Program-made: the position numbers and the translations under genes
Source: Mobula hypostoma
Taxonomy: Eukaryota
DNA length: 64,000 nucleotides
Reading direction: 5' to 3'
Assembly: GCF_963921235.1 (NCBI RefSeq)
Contig: NC_086097.1
Span: forward strand, 40,860,001-40,924,000
Notes under the pieces: generated by a model
What the model saw: only the letters and a program-made list of their open reading frames with translations
Told to the model about the DNA's origin: nothing
Databases searched by the model: none
Shown: positions 1 through 54,885 of the stretch, one piece after another
Layout: every line of letters starts with the position of its first letter
Numbering within the stretch: the first letter of the stretch is position 1

Positions 1-1450
1 CGCACACACATAGACGGGCACACACGCAGACGGGCACACACACAGACGCACACACACAGATGGGCACACACACAGACGCACACACACAGACGCACACACA
101 CAGACGGGCACACACGCAGACGGGCACACACGCAGACGGGCACACACAGACGCACACACACAGACGGGCACACACAGACTCGCACACACACAGACGTACA
201 CGCACAGACGAGCACATGCACAGACACGCACACACACAGACTCGCACACACACAGACACACACACAGACGCACACACATAGACGGGCACACACGCAGACA
301 CACACACACAGATGGGCACACACACAGATGTACACGCACAGACGAGCACATGCACAGACACGCACACACACAGACTCGCACACACAGACGCGCACACACA
401 GACGGGCACACACGCAGACGCACACACACAGACGCACACGCAGACGGGCACACACGCAGACGCACACACGCAGACGCACACACGCAGACTCGCACACACA
501 GACTCACACAGACGCACAGACACAGACGGGCACACACACAGAGACTCGCACACACAGAGACTCGCACACATACAGACGCACACACACAGACGCACACACG
601 CAGATGCACACGCACACACAGATGCACACACACACAGACGAGCACACGCACAGACACAGACGCGCACACACAGACGCACACACACAGATGGGCACACACA
701 CACAGATGCACACACACACAGACGTACACGCACAGACTCGCACATGCACAGACACGCACACACACAGACTCGCACACACACAGACTCGCACACACACAGA
801 CACGCACACAGACGAGCACATGCACAGACACGCACACACACAGACTCGCACACACACAGACACGCACACAGACGCACACACATAGACGGGCACACACGCA
901 GACACACACGCAGATGGGCACACACACAGACGCACACACACAGATGGGCACACACACAGACGCACACACACAGACGCACACACACAGACGCACACACACA
1001 GACGGGCACACACGCAGACGGGCACACACGCAGACGGGCACACACAGACGCACACACACAGACGGGCACACACAGACTCGCACACACACAGACGTACACG
1101 CACAGACGAGCACATGCACAGACACGCACACACACAGACTCGCACACACACAGACACGCACACAGACGCACACACATAGACGGGCACACACGCAGACACA
1201 CACACACAGATGGGCACACACACAGATGCACACACACACAGATGTACACGCACAGACGAGCACATGCACAGACACGCACACACACAGACTCGCACACACA
1301 CAGACACGCACACAGACGCACACACATAGACGGGCACACACGCAGACACACACGCAGACGGGCACACACACAGACGCACACACACAGATGGGCACACACA
1401 CAGACGCACACACACAGACGCACACACACAGACGGGCACACACGCAAACG
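1..1450. repeat. Complex (CA)n-derived micro/minisatellite with CAGACG, CAGATGGG, CAGACTCG interruptions; runs off window start
   Basis: Almost pure CA dinucleotide backbone with recurring landmarks (GACGAGCACATGCACAGACACGC at 207, 341, 811, 1105, 1255). The His/Thr-rich ORFs are translation artefacts. Confidence 0.97.
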
Positions 1451-1459
1451 CATGCCAAC

Positions 1460-3905
1460 AAAAAAGGAAAGATGCGAAAAGGGCAATGGTATGACAGTCA
1501 TGGGAGATTTCAATGTGGGAAAATCTGGTTGGAAATGGATCCCAAGAGAGTGAGTTGATTGAATGCCTGTGAGATGGCTATTTAGAGCAATTTGTCTTTG
1601 ACCCTAGTAGGGGATCAGCTATTCTGGATTGTGTGTTATGCAATGAACTGAAGGTGATTAGGTGGCTTAAGGTAAAAGAACCCTTAGGACGTAATGATCA
1701 CAATATGACTGAGTTCAACATGAAATTTGATAGGGAGAGAGTAAAGTCTGATGTAGCAGTATTTCAGTGGAGTAAAGGAAATTAGAGTGATATGAGAGAG
1801 GAGTTGGCTAAAGTAAATTGGAAGGAGATGCTGGCAGGGATGACATCAGAGCAGCAATCGTGTGAGTTTCTGGCAAAAATTAGGAAAATGGCAAAACAGT
1901 ACAACCCTGGCTGACAAGGGATGCCAAAGCTAATGTAAAAGCAATAGAGAGAGCATATAACAAAGCAATTATTAGTGGAAAGCCAGATGAAAGGGAAACT
2001 TATAAAAACCCTACAGAAAGCAACTAAGGAATAATCATTAGGAGGGAAAAAGATGAAATATGAAAGCAAGCTAGCAAACAATATCAAAGTGGATAGTAAA
2101 AGCTTTTTCAAATATGTGAAAAATAAAAGATAGATGACATTGGATATAGGACCGCTAGAAACTGAGGCAGGAGAAATAATAACGGGGCAATGTGATGGCA
2201 GATAAACTCAAAGAATATTTTGCATCAGTCTTCACTGTGGAAGGCACTAGCAGTGTGCCAGATATTGAAGGGTGTGAGGGAACAAAAGTGAGTGCAGTTA
2301 CTATTACAGGGGAGAAGGTGCTCAAAAAGGTGAAAGACCTAAGGGTACGTAAGTCACCTGGAGCAGATGAACTGCACCCTAAGGTTCTGAAAGAGGTTGC
2401 GTTAGAAGTTGTGGAAGCATTAATGATAATCTTTCAAAAATCATTAGACTCTGGCATGGTGCCAGAGGACTGTAAAATTGCAAGTGTCACTCCACTCTTT
2501 AAGAAAGGAGGAAGGCTGCAAAAGAAAATTATGGACCAGTTAGCCTGGACTCAATGGTTGGGAAGATGTTGGAGTCAATTGTTAAGGATGAGGTTATGGA
2601 GTATTTGGTGGCACAGGACAAGATAGGACAAAGTAAGCATGATTTCCTTAAGGGAAAATCTTGCCTGATGAACCTGTTGGAATTCTTTGACGAGATTACA
2701 AATAGGATAGACAAAGGGGATGCAGTAGATGTTGTCTATTTGGACTTTCAGAAAGGTTTTGACAAAGTGCTGCATATCAGGTTGTTTGCAAAGTTAAGAG
2801 CCCATGGTATTACTCAATGGAATTTACTGGCATGGTTACAGCATTAGCTGATTGGCAGGAAGCAGCAAGTGGGAATAAAAGGATCCCTTTCTGGTTCGCT
2901 GCCAGTTACTAGTGGTGTTCTGCAGGGTTCAGTGTTGGGACTGCTTATTATGCTGCATATCTATGACCTATATGATGAAATAGAACGTTCTGTTATCAAG
3001 TTTGCAGATGATATGAAGATTGGTGCAGGGTCAGGTAGTGTTGAGGAAACAGATGGCTGAAGAAGGACTTAGACAGATTAGGAATATGGGCAAGAAAATG
3101 GCAAATTAAATACAATCTTGGAAAATGCATGGCCATGCACTTTGGTAGGAGAAATGAATGTGCAGCTATTTTCTAAATGGGGAGAAAATCCAAAAATCTG
3201 AAATGCAAAGGAACTTGGGAGTTGTCATGTAGAACATCCAAAAGGTTAACTTGCAGGTAGAGTCAATGGTGAGGAAGACAAATGCTATATTAGCATTCAT
3301 TTCAAGAGGTCTAGAATACAAGAGCAGGGATGTGATGCTGAGGCTTTATAAGGCACTGGTGAGGCCTCAGCGTGAGTATTGTGAGCAGTTTTGGACTCCT
3401 CATGTTAAAAAAAAATGTGCTGACATTGGAGAGGGTCCAGAGGCGGTTCACAAGGATGATTCTGGGAATTAAAGGGTTATCACCTGAGGAAAGTTTGATG
3501 ACTCTGGGTCTGTACTTGCTGGAATTTAAAAGGGTGAGGGGGTATCTCAGTGAAACCTTTTAAATGTTGAAAGGCCATGACAGAGTAGATGTGGAAAAGA
3601 TGTTTCCCATGTTGGGGGCACAGTCGCAGGATAGAGAAGCATTCATTCAAAACAGGGATAAGCAAAACATTTTTTTAGCCAGAGGGTGGTGAATTTATGG
3701 AATTTATTACCACAGACAGCTGTAGAGAACAGGTCGTTTCCTGTATTTAAGACAGAGATTGATTGATTCTTGATTGGACACGGCATTAAAGGTTATGGGG
3801 AGAAGGTTGGGGAGTGGGGCTGAGGAGAGAGAAAAAGATCAGCCATGATTGAATGGCGGAGCAGACTCGATGGGCCTAATAGGCTCATTGTCTTAAGGTC
3901 TTATG
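1460..3905 (+). mobile_element. CR1 LINE, 5'-truncated, degenerate ORF2 (APE endonuclease end + RT) and 3' UTR
   Basis: ORF fragments VMGDFN, KSPGADELHPKVLKE, DVVYLDFQKGFDKV, GVLQGSVLG..KFADD, LERVQRRFTRMI; many stops and frameshifts; CR1-type 3' end ...gtcttatg. Confidence 0.93.
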
Positions 3906-14137: not shown

Positions 14138-14229
14138 TATTTTAAAAATCTTTCACTCATTTTCGAGGTATCAAAAACAAGAGGATATAGTGTAAAAGTG
14201 AGAGGTAGAAGACTTCACAAGGGCAATCA

Positions 14230-14360
14230 AAAGAAAATCTGCAGATTCTGGAAATCCAAGCAACACACACAAAATGCTGGAGGAACTCAGTAGGCCAGGC
14301 AGCATCTATGGAAAAGAGTAAACAGTCAATGTTTCCAGCTGAAACCCTTTGACAGGACAA
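14230..14360 (-). mobile_element. Penelope-associated short repeat with decayed hammerhead motif
   Basis: Reverse complement of the repeat at 51742-51915; motif reads gtcCTGTCAAagggtttcagctgGAAAcattgac. Confidence 0.7.
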
Positions 14361-27021: not shown

Positions 27022-27200
27022 GACATTTTGGGCCGAAAACCTTTGGCAGGACTGAATAAAATTCTGTCCTGAATAAAACCCTCTGGCAGGCCCAAAACAT
27101 TGACTGTACTTCTTTCCATAGTTTCTGCCTAGCCTGCTGAGTTCCTCCAGCATTTTCTGTGTGTTGTTGGCACGTCCAGCATCTGCAGATTTTCTCTTGA
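27022..27200. mobile_element. Penelope-associated repeat, two partial copies in opposite orientation
   Basis: 27022-27054 is a minus-strand decayed hammerhead; 27085-27200 is the plus-strand 3' part (..cattgactg..ctgctgagttcctccagc..gcatctgcagattt). Confidence 0.65.
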
Positions 27201-31071: not shown

Positions 31072-31240
31072 GAGCAACACACACAAAATATTGGAAGAAC
31101 TGAAGGCTGAGGACCTTCATCAGAACAGATACATTGACTGTTTATTTCCCTCCATTGATGCTGCCTGTCCTGCTGGGTTCCTCCAGCAGTTTGTGTGTGT
31201 TGCTGAGGATTTCCTCAGTATCTGCAGAATCTCTTGTGTC
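31072..31240. mobile_element. Penelope-associated repeat as an inverted (fold-back) pair
   Basis: gcaacacacacaaaatattgga (left) versus tccagcagtttgtgtgtgttgc (right); CTGATGAAGG on minus at 31114-31123. Confidence 0.65.
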
Positions 31241-40737: not shown

Positions 40738-40877
40738 CTCCACCAACTGTAAGTATCATGCACTCTGGTCAAGCATGTAACATTGAGGAAGAACGATATA
40801 CGGAGAGAGTGTACACAATTCGGGAAGGAGAAACCTTGGAGCTCACTTGCCTTGTTCGAGGCCATCCACGGCCACAG
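40738..40877 (+). CDS. MDGA2: Internal coding exon of MAM domain-containing GPI anchor protein 2 (start of Ig domain 1)
   Basis: Polypyrimidine tract + AG (tcttctttctgtag, AG at 40736-40737); 140-bp exon (phase 1 in, phase 0 out) encoding (A)PPTVSIMHSGQACNIEEERYTERVYTIREGETLELTCLVRGHPRPQ; GTGAAT donor at 40878. The ACNIEEERY motif matches MDGA2 rather than MDGA1 as I recall them. Confidence 0.95.
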
Positions 40878-51506: not shown

Positions 51507-51741
51507 AGACAACCAGTTGCAGGATACCTCTGTGACTGTTCTCAATAACAAGTATGTTGTTTTGGATTCAAACTGGCAAAGGAAAGCCACAGCAGTCAGG
51601 TCCCTGGCACTGAGTCCAGTGCTGTGACTCAGAAGTGAAGGAGGGAAAAGAGGCGAATTTTAATGATAGGGGATTCATTGGTTAGGGAACAGGCAGGAGG
51701 TTCTGTAGATGAGAATGAGATTCCTGCATGATATGCTTCCC

Positions 51742-51915
51742 GCCCTCCCCCCACCTTCTTTATAGGGCCTCTGCCCCTTCCCTCTACAGTCCTGATGAAG
51801 GGTTCTGGCCCGAAACTTTGACTGATCATTTCCACGGATGCTGCCTGACCCGCTGAGTTCCTCCAGCGTGTTGTGAGTGTTGCTTTGACCCCAGCATCTG
51901 CAGATTATTTTGTGT
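51742..51915 (+). mobile_element. Penelope-associated short repeat (pLTR-like) inserted into CR1 ORF1
   Basis: TGCTTCCC on both sides (51734-51741, 51916-51923); pyrimidine-rich 5' part, hammerhead motif, and the ctgctgagttcctccagc-type 3' part shared with five other loci. Confidence 0.8.
51787..51824 (+). ncRNA. Minimal type-I hammerhead ribozyme motif
   Basis: CAGUC (stem I) - CUGAUGA-A - GGGU ucug GCCC (stem II) - GAAA - CUUU - GACUG (stem I'); both core boxes intact, helix III/cleavage triplet mutated relative to the inferred GAAACGUY. Confidence 0.7.
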
Positions 51916-54619
51916 TGCTTCCCAGGTGCCCAGGTTAGACACATCCCAGATAGCCTTCTTAAGGGACAGAGCAGCAACAGTTTTTTGGTCCATATTGGTG
52001 CCAATGACATAGGTAGGAAAGTTAATACAATTCTTCAAAGTGAGTTCAAGGAGTTAAGTGCAAATTTAAGGACAGGATCTCCAGAATAGTGATCTCATGC
52101 CACATGCTAATGAGGCTAGAAAAAGGAAGAAAATATAGTTCAACATGTGGCTAAGGAGATGATGTAGGGGAGAGTACTTTTGATTCTTGGATCATTGGGT
52201 TCTCATCTAAGCCTGGTGGGACCTGTACAAATGGGACAGTTTGCATCTGAACTGGAGGGGGACCAATACCCTTGCAGAGCTGCTCTGGAGGGTGTAAGCT
52301 AGAGTCGCAGACAGATGGGAACCTTAGTGCCAGGGCAGCTTGTGGAGGGGTTGTGGGGGAAGTAGATGTTAAGCCTCCATACAAAGACAGGAAATGAAAA
52401 GTTGAGTATGGTTGGAATAACATTCTGAATTGCTTCTATTTCAGGTAAGGCAGATGAGCTTAGAGCAAGGATGGACACGTTGAATGATGGCATTGTAGCC
52501 ATGAGTGAGGTTTGGTTGCAGGAGGGGCAGGACTGGCCGTCTCAGGTTCTGGGGTTTTGTTGTTTTAGACATGGTAGAGGAGGAGGGATTAAAGGGGGAG
52601 GCGTAGCGTTACTAGTCAGGAAAATTTCACTTCTTGTCGGCTTTTTCATTTGAGGTCATTGCAAGAAAACACTAGAAGAAAAATCAAAAGGGCTAAAGGA
52701 AGACAAGGTTGCTCTGGCAGACAAAGTGAACAAGAATCAGAAGGGCTTTGACAGATATGTTATGAGCAAAAGAATAACAATAGGCAAAATCTGAAATGAT
52801 AATACTGAGGAATTTAAAGTTGCTGTCCTTGTCAGGGTCAATGGAAGCAGGCTTGGTGAAACTGGAACTAGAGGTCACAAGTTAAGGGTGAAAGGTGAAA
52901 TATTTAATGGAAACCTGGGGTGGGGAGGAGATGTTTCTTTACTCAGAGGGTGGTACAAGTGTGGACAAGCTGCCAGCAGATGTCGTTGAAGGTTTGATTG
53001 TAACACTTTAAGAGAAGTCTGGATAAGTACATGGATGTGAATGGTATGGAGGACCATGGTCCAGGTGTGGGTCAAGGGACTAGGCAGCATAACAGTTCAG
53101 CATGAACTAGATGGGCTGAAGGGTCTGTTTATGTGCCGTAGTGCTCTATGGCTCCATGATTCTAGTTTATAATTTCTAAAGACATATTTCTTGGTGCAGC
53201 TCAATCCCCTGCTCCTCCCACTAGCTTTGAAAGATTATCTGTGGGAGAATAACATATTTAATGAGGCAATACAAAAATTTACAAGTTTCCTGTAATAGAG
53301 TTGCAGTTCTCCTGCCCTGTTTTGTTAAGTTTATAAGCAGGAGATAGCGTGATACACTGTAGATTCACTAGTCACAAACCTATATCACGAGTGCCCAAGA
53401 TGGCACATACAAAAATTTTGTTAGGACGTGGCATGCAGTGTTACCCCTTGAGTTATTAAACCCCACATATAAATAAAGAGATGCATTAAGATTATCTCCA
53501 CTGCCAACTGAAAGAGCAAGTGATCTTTTACAACCCGAGAACAGTGAGTTGTCACAAGAAATATTTCACAGAGGCTTGGTGCTAGCTGGACGATATCGTA
53601 GACCTGGTGCATATATCAGTATTTGGATAGTAAACAGTTTGGCAAGGTAGCATTGGTTTCTCTCTGCTTATATATTTTCTTTGTCATTTGTGAGTAAACA
53701 CTGGATATTCACTGATAATAACAGTAAGTACTGGACGTAGTTTAACGCCTCCATGATTCCTCATGTGAGTTATTGTTTTCAGTGATGAACTTGCTCAAGC
53801 CAAATTATAGGATTAGACTTGCTGATGAAACTAATGCTACATGCAGAGTTCTCAAAACAACCAAATACAAGCTGGATATAAAATATTTGTCAGCAACAAA
53901 AGTCCCACTGAGAGTCAGGTGTGTTTATTTTCGTTTCCTTAATGTTTTATGAATATGCACCAAAGCTTATAATTTTATATTCAGATTACTTAAGCTATAA
54001 GTGAGTTACAATAACAAACTGTTTAAAAACTTTTTTTTCAATTGTATTTTTAAAAGATTAATGTCAATGATTTTTGAACAGGTTTTATAAAATGTTTTAT
54101 TTTATTTTATCTCTGTTAAATTTTTATTAATAGCAAAACAAAAATTATACATGAAAAATCATCCTTCCGAAAAGACTGATTCGCTTCCTTAAAGTTCATT
54201 ATTATTATTACTAATTCATTAATCAATGATAATAAATAATGGCATGAGAGGTTTTTTTTGGAAGATTATTTCCAGTTTGAGCAAACACTCTCAAAAAGGT
54301 TCATCTTTTCTGCACTAGGACATGACCTGGGCTATAGTTTTATTGAGAGAGCTGAGAATGTTAGATGGCAACTGTTTATAACAGGGATTAACTGGAGGAT
54401 TGATTTAACCTCTCTTGGTCTGGCAAAGGATCTTCACTCAAAGTAAAAGCTAATTCTCCATTCCCAAGCTGCTATAGATTGATCTTTTCCACCATTTATT
54501 TTACGCCACCTGTCCACTACCACATCAATTCAAGCAATAACATTTCTTCAATGTACTTTGCAAATAAAATCTCTGTGCTCATTTAAAATTTACAGTGGAT
54601 GCACACAAAAGGTTTTCTG

Positions 54620-54885
54620 TGCAAAAGAAAGTGAGCTGGAGGATCTCAACAGGTTAGGCAGCATCTGGGGAAGGAAATGAACACAGGGCAATTTGAGTTG
54701 AGTCCCTTCGTCTGGACTGTAAGAAGGGAGGGAGTACAAAGGGATGAGAGGGATGGCAAGGATAAGAGCTGACAGGTAATAAGTGAATCCACATGAGGAG
54801 AGGTTGATGGGCAATGGTGCCAGGTGGGGGCAGGACGGGGGAGGATACCAATAGGAGCTGGGAGGTATTATGTGAAGGCAACAAA
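54620..54885 (-). mobile_element. Penelope-associated repeat with decayed hammerhead motif
   Basis: gctggaggatctcaacaggttaggcagcatc; minus strand cagtcCAGACGAagggactcaactcAAAttgccctg (54684-54719); purine-rich extension. Confidence 0.65.

What the first reader, a model, noticed from the sequence alone, without database searches (positions are those of the whole stretch)
51742..51915. Minimal hammerhead ribozyme in a short mobile repeat inside an MDGA2 intron (sense strand)
Seen: 51787-51824 reads CAGUC-CUGAUGA-A-GGGU(ucug)GCCC-GAAA-CUUU-GACUG, a perfect 5-bp stem I, both hammerhead core boxes and a stem II. The 174-bp carrier interrupts a CR1 ORF1 and is bounded by an 8-bp duplication (TGCTTCCC). 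Known: Penelope-like elements and retrozymes carry minimal type-I hammerheads with an almost absent, palindromic helix III, thought to work as dimers. Inference: this is a non-autonomous Penelope/retrozyme-like family mobile in this genome. This copy lies in the sense orientation of the MDGA2 pre-mRNA, but its helix III (CUUU instead of CGUC/CGUU) is probably impaired.
Basis: partly seen in the sequence, partly recalled or inferred. Interest (0 to 1): 0.75.

Follow-up and report, generated by a model that had tools for sequence, protein, structure and literature searches.

The report
Broken Penelope retrotransposon end with hammerhead
This 174-base insertion in an intron of the MDGA2 gene of a cartilaginous fish is the cut-off end of a common jumping gene (a Penelope-like retrotransposon) and carries that element's known small hammerhead-ribozyme motif, here mutated and likely inactive, so it is an ordinary relic.

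Summary
In detail: hammerhead core boxes, stems I and II, the 8-bp duplication, the interrupted LINE and the sense position in an MDGA2 intron are all there. The interpretation needs correcting. The 174 bp are not a separate non-autonomous family. They are the 5'-truncated end (pLTR plus 'tail') of a 3.55-kb Penelope-like element whose longer copies encode RT and GIY-YIG endonuclease; 0 of 90 sampled copies share this start. The family motif has the palindromic ACGU helix III (3,293 exact genomic matches); this copy's ACUU variant has 27. It has no same-strand partner within 59 kb downstream. MDGA2 holds 5 intact sense and 6 intact antisense motifs, so sense orientation is unremarkable. Stem covariation was not shown, and cleavage is untested. 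One family-level pattern is unexplained: 31 of 81 copies stop inside the 5' half of the hammerhead and none at the cut site, but only 1 of 20 upstream pLTRs of full-length copies stops there. The scan noted this pile-up before in other shark/ray genomes. Verdict: new member of a known kind, low interest.

The parts
51742..51915 (+). Inserted DNA: 5'-truncated 3' end (pLTR plus tail) of a Penelope-like element; homology runs 51736-51916 when the junction microhomologies are counted
   Evidence: 93-97% identical to the 39 other best genomic matches; 8 differences from the family majority in 181 nt, 5 at CpG sites
51787..51824 (+). Minimal type-I hammerhead motif; predicted cut site between 51819 and 51820
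   Evidence: site placed by standard hammerhead numbering (recalled); cleavage untested
51815..51819 (+). Helix III strand and cleavage triplet, mutated: ACUU + UUU in place of the family's palindromic ACGU + GUC (changes at 51817 and 51819)
   Evidence: 27 genomic matches to this variant against 3,293 to the intact pattern
51880..51916 (+). PLE 'tail' (about 35 nt; left edge approximate), the segment between the two 3'-end classes of the family
   Evidence: 3' ends fall near q141-152 or q180-185, q1 = 51736
51734..51741 (+). Left target-site duplication TGCTTCCC; last 6 bases also match the element
51916..51923 (+). Right target-site duplication TGCTTCCC
51540..52650 (+). Older, decayed host LINE (esterase-type ORF1 followed by an AP-endonuclease remnant; 'CR1' label recalled, bounds approximate) into which the element inserted
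   Evidence: paralogs 72-78% identical, contiguous across the site; 52429-52650 hits Exo_endo_phos E 4.5e-4, below the curated cut-off
40738..40877 (+). MDGA2 coding exon upstream of the insert (context)

Best explanation
The insert is the 5'-truncated end of an autonomous-type Penelope-like retrotransposon (3.55-kb unit, RT plus GIY-YIG), likely written into an old LINE by target-primed reverse transcription, and its hammerhead motif has since mutated and is likely inactive. Shown: identity with the element's 3' end, the ORF in longer copies, the duplication, the empty site, the helix III changes. Inferred steps: the endonuclease made an 8-nt staggered cut; RT started at the tail end (51916), copied 174 nt straight through an uncut hammerhead, and was joined to the target by the CTTCCC microhomology; afterwards four point changes, all at CpG sites, hit the motif, two of them in helix III and the cleavage triplet. 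In the parent element the motif would cut as a dimer or with help from the element's protein. This copy would do nothing to the MDGA2 pre-mRNA.
For: All 29 closest copies share the 3' end and run further 5', up to at least 1.83 kb (these were chosen for covering the whole query). Upstream lies one ORF with RVT_1 and GIY-YIG (L039: 717 aa open, E 2.7e-7 and 1.3e-3), ending about 265 nt before the hammerhead, with a CxxxCxxC linker. Copies picked by the ORF start carry the same segment upstream: 24 of 30. 10 of 20 fetched long loci have the whole motif at both ends, 3,551-3,552 bp apart in 5 of them. Head-to-head inverted partners with the tail on one arm only: 39 of 40 partners are short. This matches the published PLE layout (PMC8557442 passages; PMC3846280). 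Helix III: ACGU self-pairs (-3.1 kcal/mol), ACUU does not (+3.4). In 260 nt of local context stems I and II have predicted probability 0.0. Nearest same-strand motif is 59 kb downstream; MDGA2 holds 5 sense and 6 antisense intact motifs and 44 sense, 47 antisense element ends, p = 0.83. Single minimal motifs showed no cleavage in vitro (PMC4209133).
Against: No fully intact ORF was seen (longest open frame 738 aa of about 1,040 expected among 20 long loci), so present-day autonomy is not shown. The GIY-YIG hits (3 of 3 proteins) and 2 of 3 RVT_1 hits lie below Pfam's curated cut-offs, and a fourth protein, which stops before the endonuclease, gave RVT_1 only. A PDB sequence search with the ORF found nothing. 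Catalysis is untested for family and copy. Covariation is not shown: the double-change stem I variant has 7 copies, 5 in one cluster, against 89 and 29 single mismatches. The 8-bp duplication is at the short end of the family range (7-17, mode 13-14). Both core boxes of this copy are intact, and the A15.1-U16.1 pair remains possible.
Confidence: 0.92

Rival explanations
1. The 174 bp belong to an independent non-autonomous retrozyme or SINE-like family that spreads through short, self-cleaved RNA circles.
For: Short copies are very common: 40 of 90 sampled copies start at or inside the hammerhead region or further 3'. Retrozymes derived from PLE pLTRs are proposed, and reported for the one chondrichthyan sampled (bioRxiv 10.64898/2026.07.22.740005).
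Against: No fixed 174-bp boundary (0 of 90 start at q1-15). No tandem monomers among 29 closest loci. Short copies are not a diverged subfamily: this one is 95.6% identical to the majority of long copies. 0 of 130 arm ends fall at q80-88, around the cut site. The motif is the minimal PLE type, not the canonical retrozyme type (PMC7229834 passages).
Confidence: 0.04
2. This copy is a working intronic ribozyme that cuts or regulates MDGA2 pre-mRNA, as reported for a few conserved amniote intronic hammerheads.
For: Sense orientation in the intron; both core boxes and stems I and II are intact.
Against: Helix III palindrome broken and triplet UUU; no partner nearer than 59 kb downstream; changes follow CpG decay, not selection; better-preserved sense copies sit in the same gene with no orientation bias; predicted misfolding in context.
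Confidence: 0.02
3. The motif in this family is a conserved protein-binding or promoter element that only resembles a hammerhead and does not cleave.
For: No copy ends at the predicted cut site. No covariation. The majority monomer prefers a closed hairpin that buries the core (-14.5 against -10.5 kcal/mol). In the anole PLE, catalytic mutants did not affect insertion in vitro, and no RNA-seq reads began or ended at the site (PMC11167929).
Against: Every catalytic-core position, the extra base after position 9, the G10.1-C11.1 pair and the ACGU palindrome are kept across families whose flanks differ, as described for minimal PLE hammerheads. The anole motif does cleave when the PLE protein is added.
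Confidence: 0.15

Closest known systems
Minimal type-I hammerheads (min-HHR) in pLTRs of metazoan Penelope-like elements (Cervera and De la Pena 2014, PMC4209133; parts 1-2 of 4 read)
   Same: Core boxes, short helix I, extra base between positions 9 and 10.1, G10.1-C11.1, palindromic 15.2-16.2 with no loop 3, thousands of solo motifs tied to truncated PLEs.
   Different: Host is a cartilaginous fish, which the parts read do not name; helix II is 4 bp, not the 7-8 bp of the Schistosoma motifs; this copy has lost the palindrome.
EN+ Penelope-like elements, Neptune type (Craig et al. 2021, PMC8557442, passages read; Arkhipova et al. 2013, PMC3846280, parts 1-4 of 5 read)
   Same: Single ORF with RT then C-terminal GIY-YIG, Cys-rich linker, partial tandems forming pLTRs, head-to-head inverted truncated partner, 30-40-bp tail on one end, target-site duplications, microhomology at 5' junctions.
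   Different: Clade not placed by a tree (Neptune against Nematis open). Hammerhead and tail lie upstream of the likely start codon, not overlapping the ORF.
Poseidon element PAc of Anolis (Frangieh et al. 2024, PMC11167929; parts 1-2 of 4 read)
   Same: Two 3'-end classes about 35 nt apart that would match two internal RT start sites; hammerhead uncut in the copied template.
   Different: In PAc the hammerhead overlaps the start codon and RT starts 111-118 nt inside the ORF; here the likely ATG is 135 nt after the predicted cut site and 38 nt after the tail. No biochemistry here.
Non-LTR retrozymes (Cervera and De la Pena 2020, PMC7229834, passages read; Li et al. 2026 preprint, parts 1-3 of 5 read)
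   Same: Type-I hammerhead, link to PLE pLTRs.
   Different: Retrozymes are tandem arrays of fixed 150-450-bp monomers, with canonical hammerheads in the 2020 paper; this is a solo, variably truncated PLE end.

Membership tests
EN+ Penelope-like element (parent family) | Single ORF with RT followed by GIY-YIG endonuclease | tested here: met
   RVT_1 then GIY-YIG in 3 of 3 long frames; most scores below curated cut-offs
EN+ Penelope-like element (parent family) | Partial tandem forming pLTRs | tested here: met
   24 of 30 ORF-start loci preceded by the 3'-end segment; period 3,551-3,552 bp in 5 loci
EN+ Penelope-like element (parent family) | Inverted 5'-truncated partner and 30-40-bp tail on one end | tested here: met
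   53 of 90 arms have an adjacent inverted piece; 39 of 40 partners with a pLTR end lack the tail
EN+ Penelope-like element (parent family) | RT groups with PLE/telomerase RTs in a tree | not tested
   no reference PLE proteins in hand; PDB sequence search empty
Neptune clade | CX2-5CxxC linker between RT and EN | tested here: met
   CxxxCxxC read in the translations; definition; also fits Nematis
Neptune clade | Phylogenetic placement | not tested
   no tree built
Minimal PLE hammerhead (family majority) | CUGANGA and GAAA boxes, helices I and II, G10.1-C11.1, palindromic helix III, NUH triplet | tested here: met
   majority of 32 long copies; 3,293 exact matches
Minimal PLE hammerhead (family majority) | Compensatory changes in the stems | tested here: not met
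   inner stems invariant, loop II varies; double-change variant 7 against 89 and 29 single mismatches. Invariant pairs say nothing either way
Minimal PLE hammerhead (family majority) | Self-cleavage as dimer or with protein | not testable with these tools
   needs an in vitro assay
Minimal PLE hammerhead (this copy) | Palindromic helix III able to pair in a dimer | tested here: not met
   ACUU, 2 of 4 intermolecular pairs lost
Non-LTR retrozyme | Tandem array of fixed-length monomers, each with a hammerhead | tested here: not met
   solo copy; no tandem neighbour in 29 closest loci; variable 5' ends; not surveyed genome-wide
Non-LTR retrozyme | Expression as small circular RNA | not testable with these tools
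   only assembled contigs were on offer

The most novel reading that the evidence does not exclude
The hammerhead would then act as an uncut, protein-bound checkpoint or a strong-stop boundary (RNA start) from which RT must escape or jump, and thousands of genomic copies would map it to the base.
Probability: 0.3. Interest if true: 0.55.

Novelty: new member of a known kind. Interest (0 to 1): 0.18.

Why it matters
The single copy matters little: it is one decayed end among thousands, and MDGA2 tolerates better-preserved sense copies. The useful parts are a correction (short hammerhead repeats in shark and ray introns are truncated PLE ends, not a new retrozyme family) and a testable family-level signal. 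The role of PLE hammerheads is stated to be unclear (PMC8557442). A very abundant family (3,293 exact intact motifs in this subfamily; 64,413 exact matches to a 31-letter stretch of a sister family) gives base-level statistics on where reverse transcription starts and stops around the motif, and these argue that the copied RNA is uncut.

Tried and rejected
Rfam scans: no hammerhead family hit on the window or on an intact copy; the models do not see this minimal form, so the blank is uninformative. Covariation lead: a compensatory-looking stem I variant seen in L086 and L089 shrank to 7 copies, 5 clustered on C1 97.1-98.1 Mb; rejected as evidence. Idea that the window's CUUU variant is a mobile sub-lineage: 27 against 3,293, consistent with sporadic mutation; the 20 loci fetched were not examined for shared ancestry. 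Idea that copies begin at the ribozyme cut site: 0 of 130 ends at q80-88. Sense depletion in MDGA2: none (one gene, introns upstream of the window's exon and motifs across 10-kb piece borders not counted). RNA evidence: no RNA holder listed on record; four contig sets laid on L116 cannot show ends, strand or level; not used. PDB search with the ORF: nothing. Pfam on the right-flank ORF1 piece: nothing informative. BLAST end points against one natural copy were biased by that copy's mutations and were redone against the majority. Literature: searches 'Penelope + Neptune + shark + retrotransposon' (0 papers), 'hammerhead ribozyme + cartilaginous + Penelope' (66 papers with 2 of 3 terms, none of the 25 listed with all three), 'Penelope + elasmobranch + genome + repeat' (5 papers, listing only), 'Penelope + pLTR + transcription start + truncated' (1 listed) and one search showed no description of this family or of the pile-up of ends; subscription papers, Repbase and supplements were not seen, and the supplements of PMC4209133 and of the 2026 preprint may list shark or ray motifs. 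The 2017 paper on dimer cleavage appears only in reference lists and was not read.

Full report
Observation. The motif is present as written. By standard hammerhead numbering (recalled), 51792-98 is C3-A9, 51799 an extra A, 51800-11 helix II, 51812-15 G12-A15.1, and the cut would fall between 51819 and 51820. The 38-mer folds into stems I and II but weakly (z = -1.47), the bare core pattern is at chance level in the window (9 against 6.97), and Rfam reports no hammerhead here or on an intact copy. The duplication TGCTTCCC flanks the insert. Five of 14 paralogous LINE loci show the flanks joined with one copy of the site, so this is a true insertion. The host LINE has an esterase-type ORF1 and an AP-endonuclease remnant (weak Pfam hits); the name CR1 is recalled, not checked against a repeat library. 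The exon at 40738-40877 is 100% identical to three shark MDGA2 proteins, and the next exon lies at C1:40932173.

What the carrier is. Coordinates q count from 51736 = q1; the hammerhead is q52-89. The 39 best other matches in the 3.48-Gb genome are 93-97% identical. In the 29 fetched, the 3' end is shared and the 5' end runs on for 9 bp to more than 1.8 kb. [quoted passage not shown] Searching with the ORF's 5' part returned copies in which the same 3'-end segment sits directly upstream: 24 of 30. In 10 of 20 long loci the whole motif is present at both ends, 3,551-3,552 bp apart in five. A likely ATG follows the tail by 38 nt. No intact ORF was found (longest 738 aa). This is the published layout of endonuclease-bearing Penelope-like elements: partial tandems, pLTRs, inverted truncated partners and a 30-40-bp tail (PMC8557442 passages; PMC3846280). 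The linker fits Neptune or Nematis; no tree was built.

Not a separate short family. I sampled 90 copies in positional order on contig C1 (the first 91 of 3,879 matches, the window's own left out) by a 33-letter pattern downstream of the hammerhead, which does not constrain the 5' end. None starts at q1-15. Starts range from q123 to beyond q-600. No tandem monomers were seen near the 29 closest copies; arrays elsewhere in the genome were not surveyed. The window copy is 95.6% identical to the majority of long copies, and 5 of its 8 differences are at CpG sites. It ends at the tail end, has an 8-bp duplication (family range 7-17) and a 6-nt microhomology at the 5' junction.

State of the ribozyme. 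The family majority has CUGACGA, GAAA, the palindrome ACGU and the triplet GUC; 3,293 genomic sites match the intact pattern exactly. The same layout is kept between different flanks in sister families, one of which has 64,413 exact matches to a 31-letter stretch. This fits the minimal PLE hammerhead of PMC4209133, where single motifs did not cleave and dimers cleaved weakly; the anole motif cleaves only with the element's protein (PMC11167929). Against a catalytic reading: covariation was not shown, and the majority monomer is predicted to prefer a closed hairpin. The window copy has four changes in the motif. Two matter: G16.2 to U breaks the palindrome (2 of 4 dimer pairs lost) and C17 to U gives a UUU triplet. 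Its variant has 27 genomic matches. In 260 nt of context the stems are predicted not to form.

Sense position in MDGA2. Across 714 kb from the window's exon to the last exon, a structure descriptor found 17 motifs: 5 intact in sense, 6 intact in antisense and 6 broken in sense, this copy among them. Element ends number 44 sense and 47 antisense (p = 0.83). The nearest same-strand motif is 59 kb downstream, past the next exon. Four older element ends in the window have no intact core. Nothing singles this copy out.

Mechanism. Most likely (0.92): endonuclease nicking with an 8-nt stagger, target-primed reverse transcription from the tail end through an uncut hammerhead, microhomology joining after 174 nt, then neutral decay. 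The identity, duplication, empty site and mutations are shown; the enzymatic steps are inferred from PLE biochemistry; inactivity is predicted, not measured.

An unexplained family pattern. Among the 90 arms, 31 of 81 that reach q79 end in q52-79, against 6 of 87 in q80-107 and 4 of 50 in q24-51 (Fisher p = 7e-7 and 1e-4; a few arms come from the same insertion). Their inverted partners, whose 3' ends lie about 35 nt earlier, share the same edge (10 of 40 at q52-55), so the edge follows position, not length. None of 130 ends lies at q80-88, around the cut site. Of 40 partners with a pLTR end, 39 lack the tail (13 further inverted pieces were cut by the locus edge or came from other parts and were left out). 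A sister family shows the same two 3'-end classes and a similar but blunter trend (11 of 30 ends from 3 nt before to 42 nt into the motif). Earlier notes of this scan report the same pile-up in other shark or ray genomes and read it as run-off at the RNA start; I had noted both pattern and idea before reading them. One result weighs against the simple run-off reading: only 1 of 20 upstream pLTRs of full-length copies ends in q52-79 (p = 0.003 against 31 of 81; these loci were chosen by BLAST rank, not position). The window copy, starting at q1-7, is not of this class.

Verdict. Real motif, known kind: a truncated, decayed end of a Neptune-like PLE. New member of a known kind; interest 0.18.

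Noticed in passing
L185-L274 (G000 C1 sample): 5' ends of copies pile up from the first bases of hammerhead stem I (q52-54: 16 of 130 ends) through q79, none at the cut site; upstream pLTRs of full-length copies do not show it (1 of 20).
   Followed up: partly
L155-L274, L281-L310: Head-to-head pairs under one target-site duplication nearly always combine one tail-bearing and one tail-less arm (39 of 40; exception L230), as if the two target strands prime at different RT start sites.
   Followed up: partly
window 51759-51790: Upstream of stem I lie TTTATA (29 nt before 51788), a pyrimidine tract and CAG; could be TATA/initiator-like or a 3' splice site (Drosophila Penelope's intron ends at helix I). 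The TATA-like word is not kept in sister families.
   Followed up: no
L188, L190, L233: Inverted arms are joined through an inverted microhomology between q77-82 and q92-97 of the element.
   Followed up: no
family majority, q59-62 with q81-84: With C at position 7 the monomer is predicted to fold into a closed hairpin that buries the catalytic core, a possible monomer lock.
   Followed up: no
L281-L310: A sister hammerhead-bearing family (CUCG loop) is far more abundant: 64,413 exact matches to a 31-letter stretch; its ORF was not examined.
   Followed up: partly
window 14228-14358 (-), 27089-27191 (+), 31128-31238 (+), 54635-54672 (-): Four older Penelope-like element ends with degenerate or missing hammerhead cores.
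   Followed up: partly
G000 C1:97.1-98.1 Mb (L086, L089, L094, L275-L279): A local cluster of near-identical full-length copies with a variant stem I, likely segmental duplication.
   Followed up: no
L078:1857-1888: A 32-bp tail-only piece of the same element sits in a paralogous LINE close to the position of the window's insertion.
   Followed up: no
window 1-1555: Long AC-rich simple-repeat tract with open frames; low-complexity, not examined.
   Followed up: no
G000 C2:145.90-145.95 Mb: A compact MDGA paralog, likely MDGA1, spanning about 45 kb against more than 700 kb for MDGA2.
   Followed up: no
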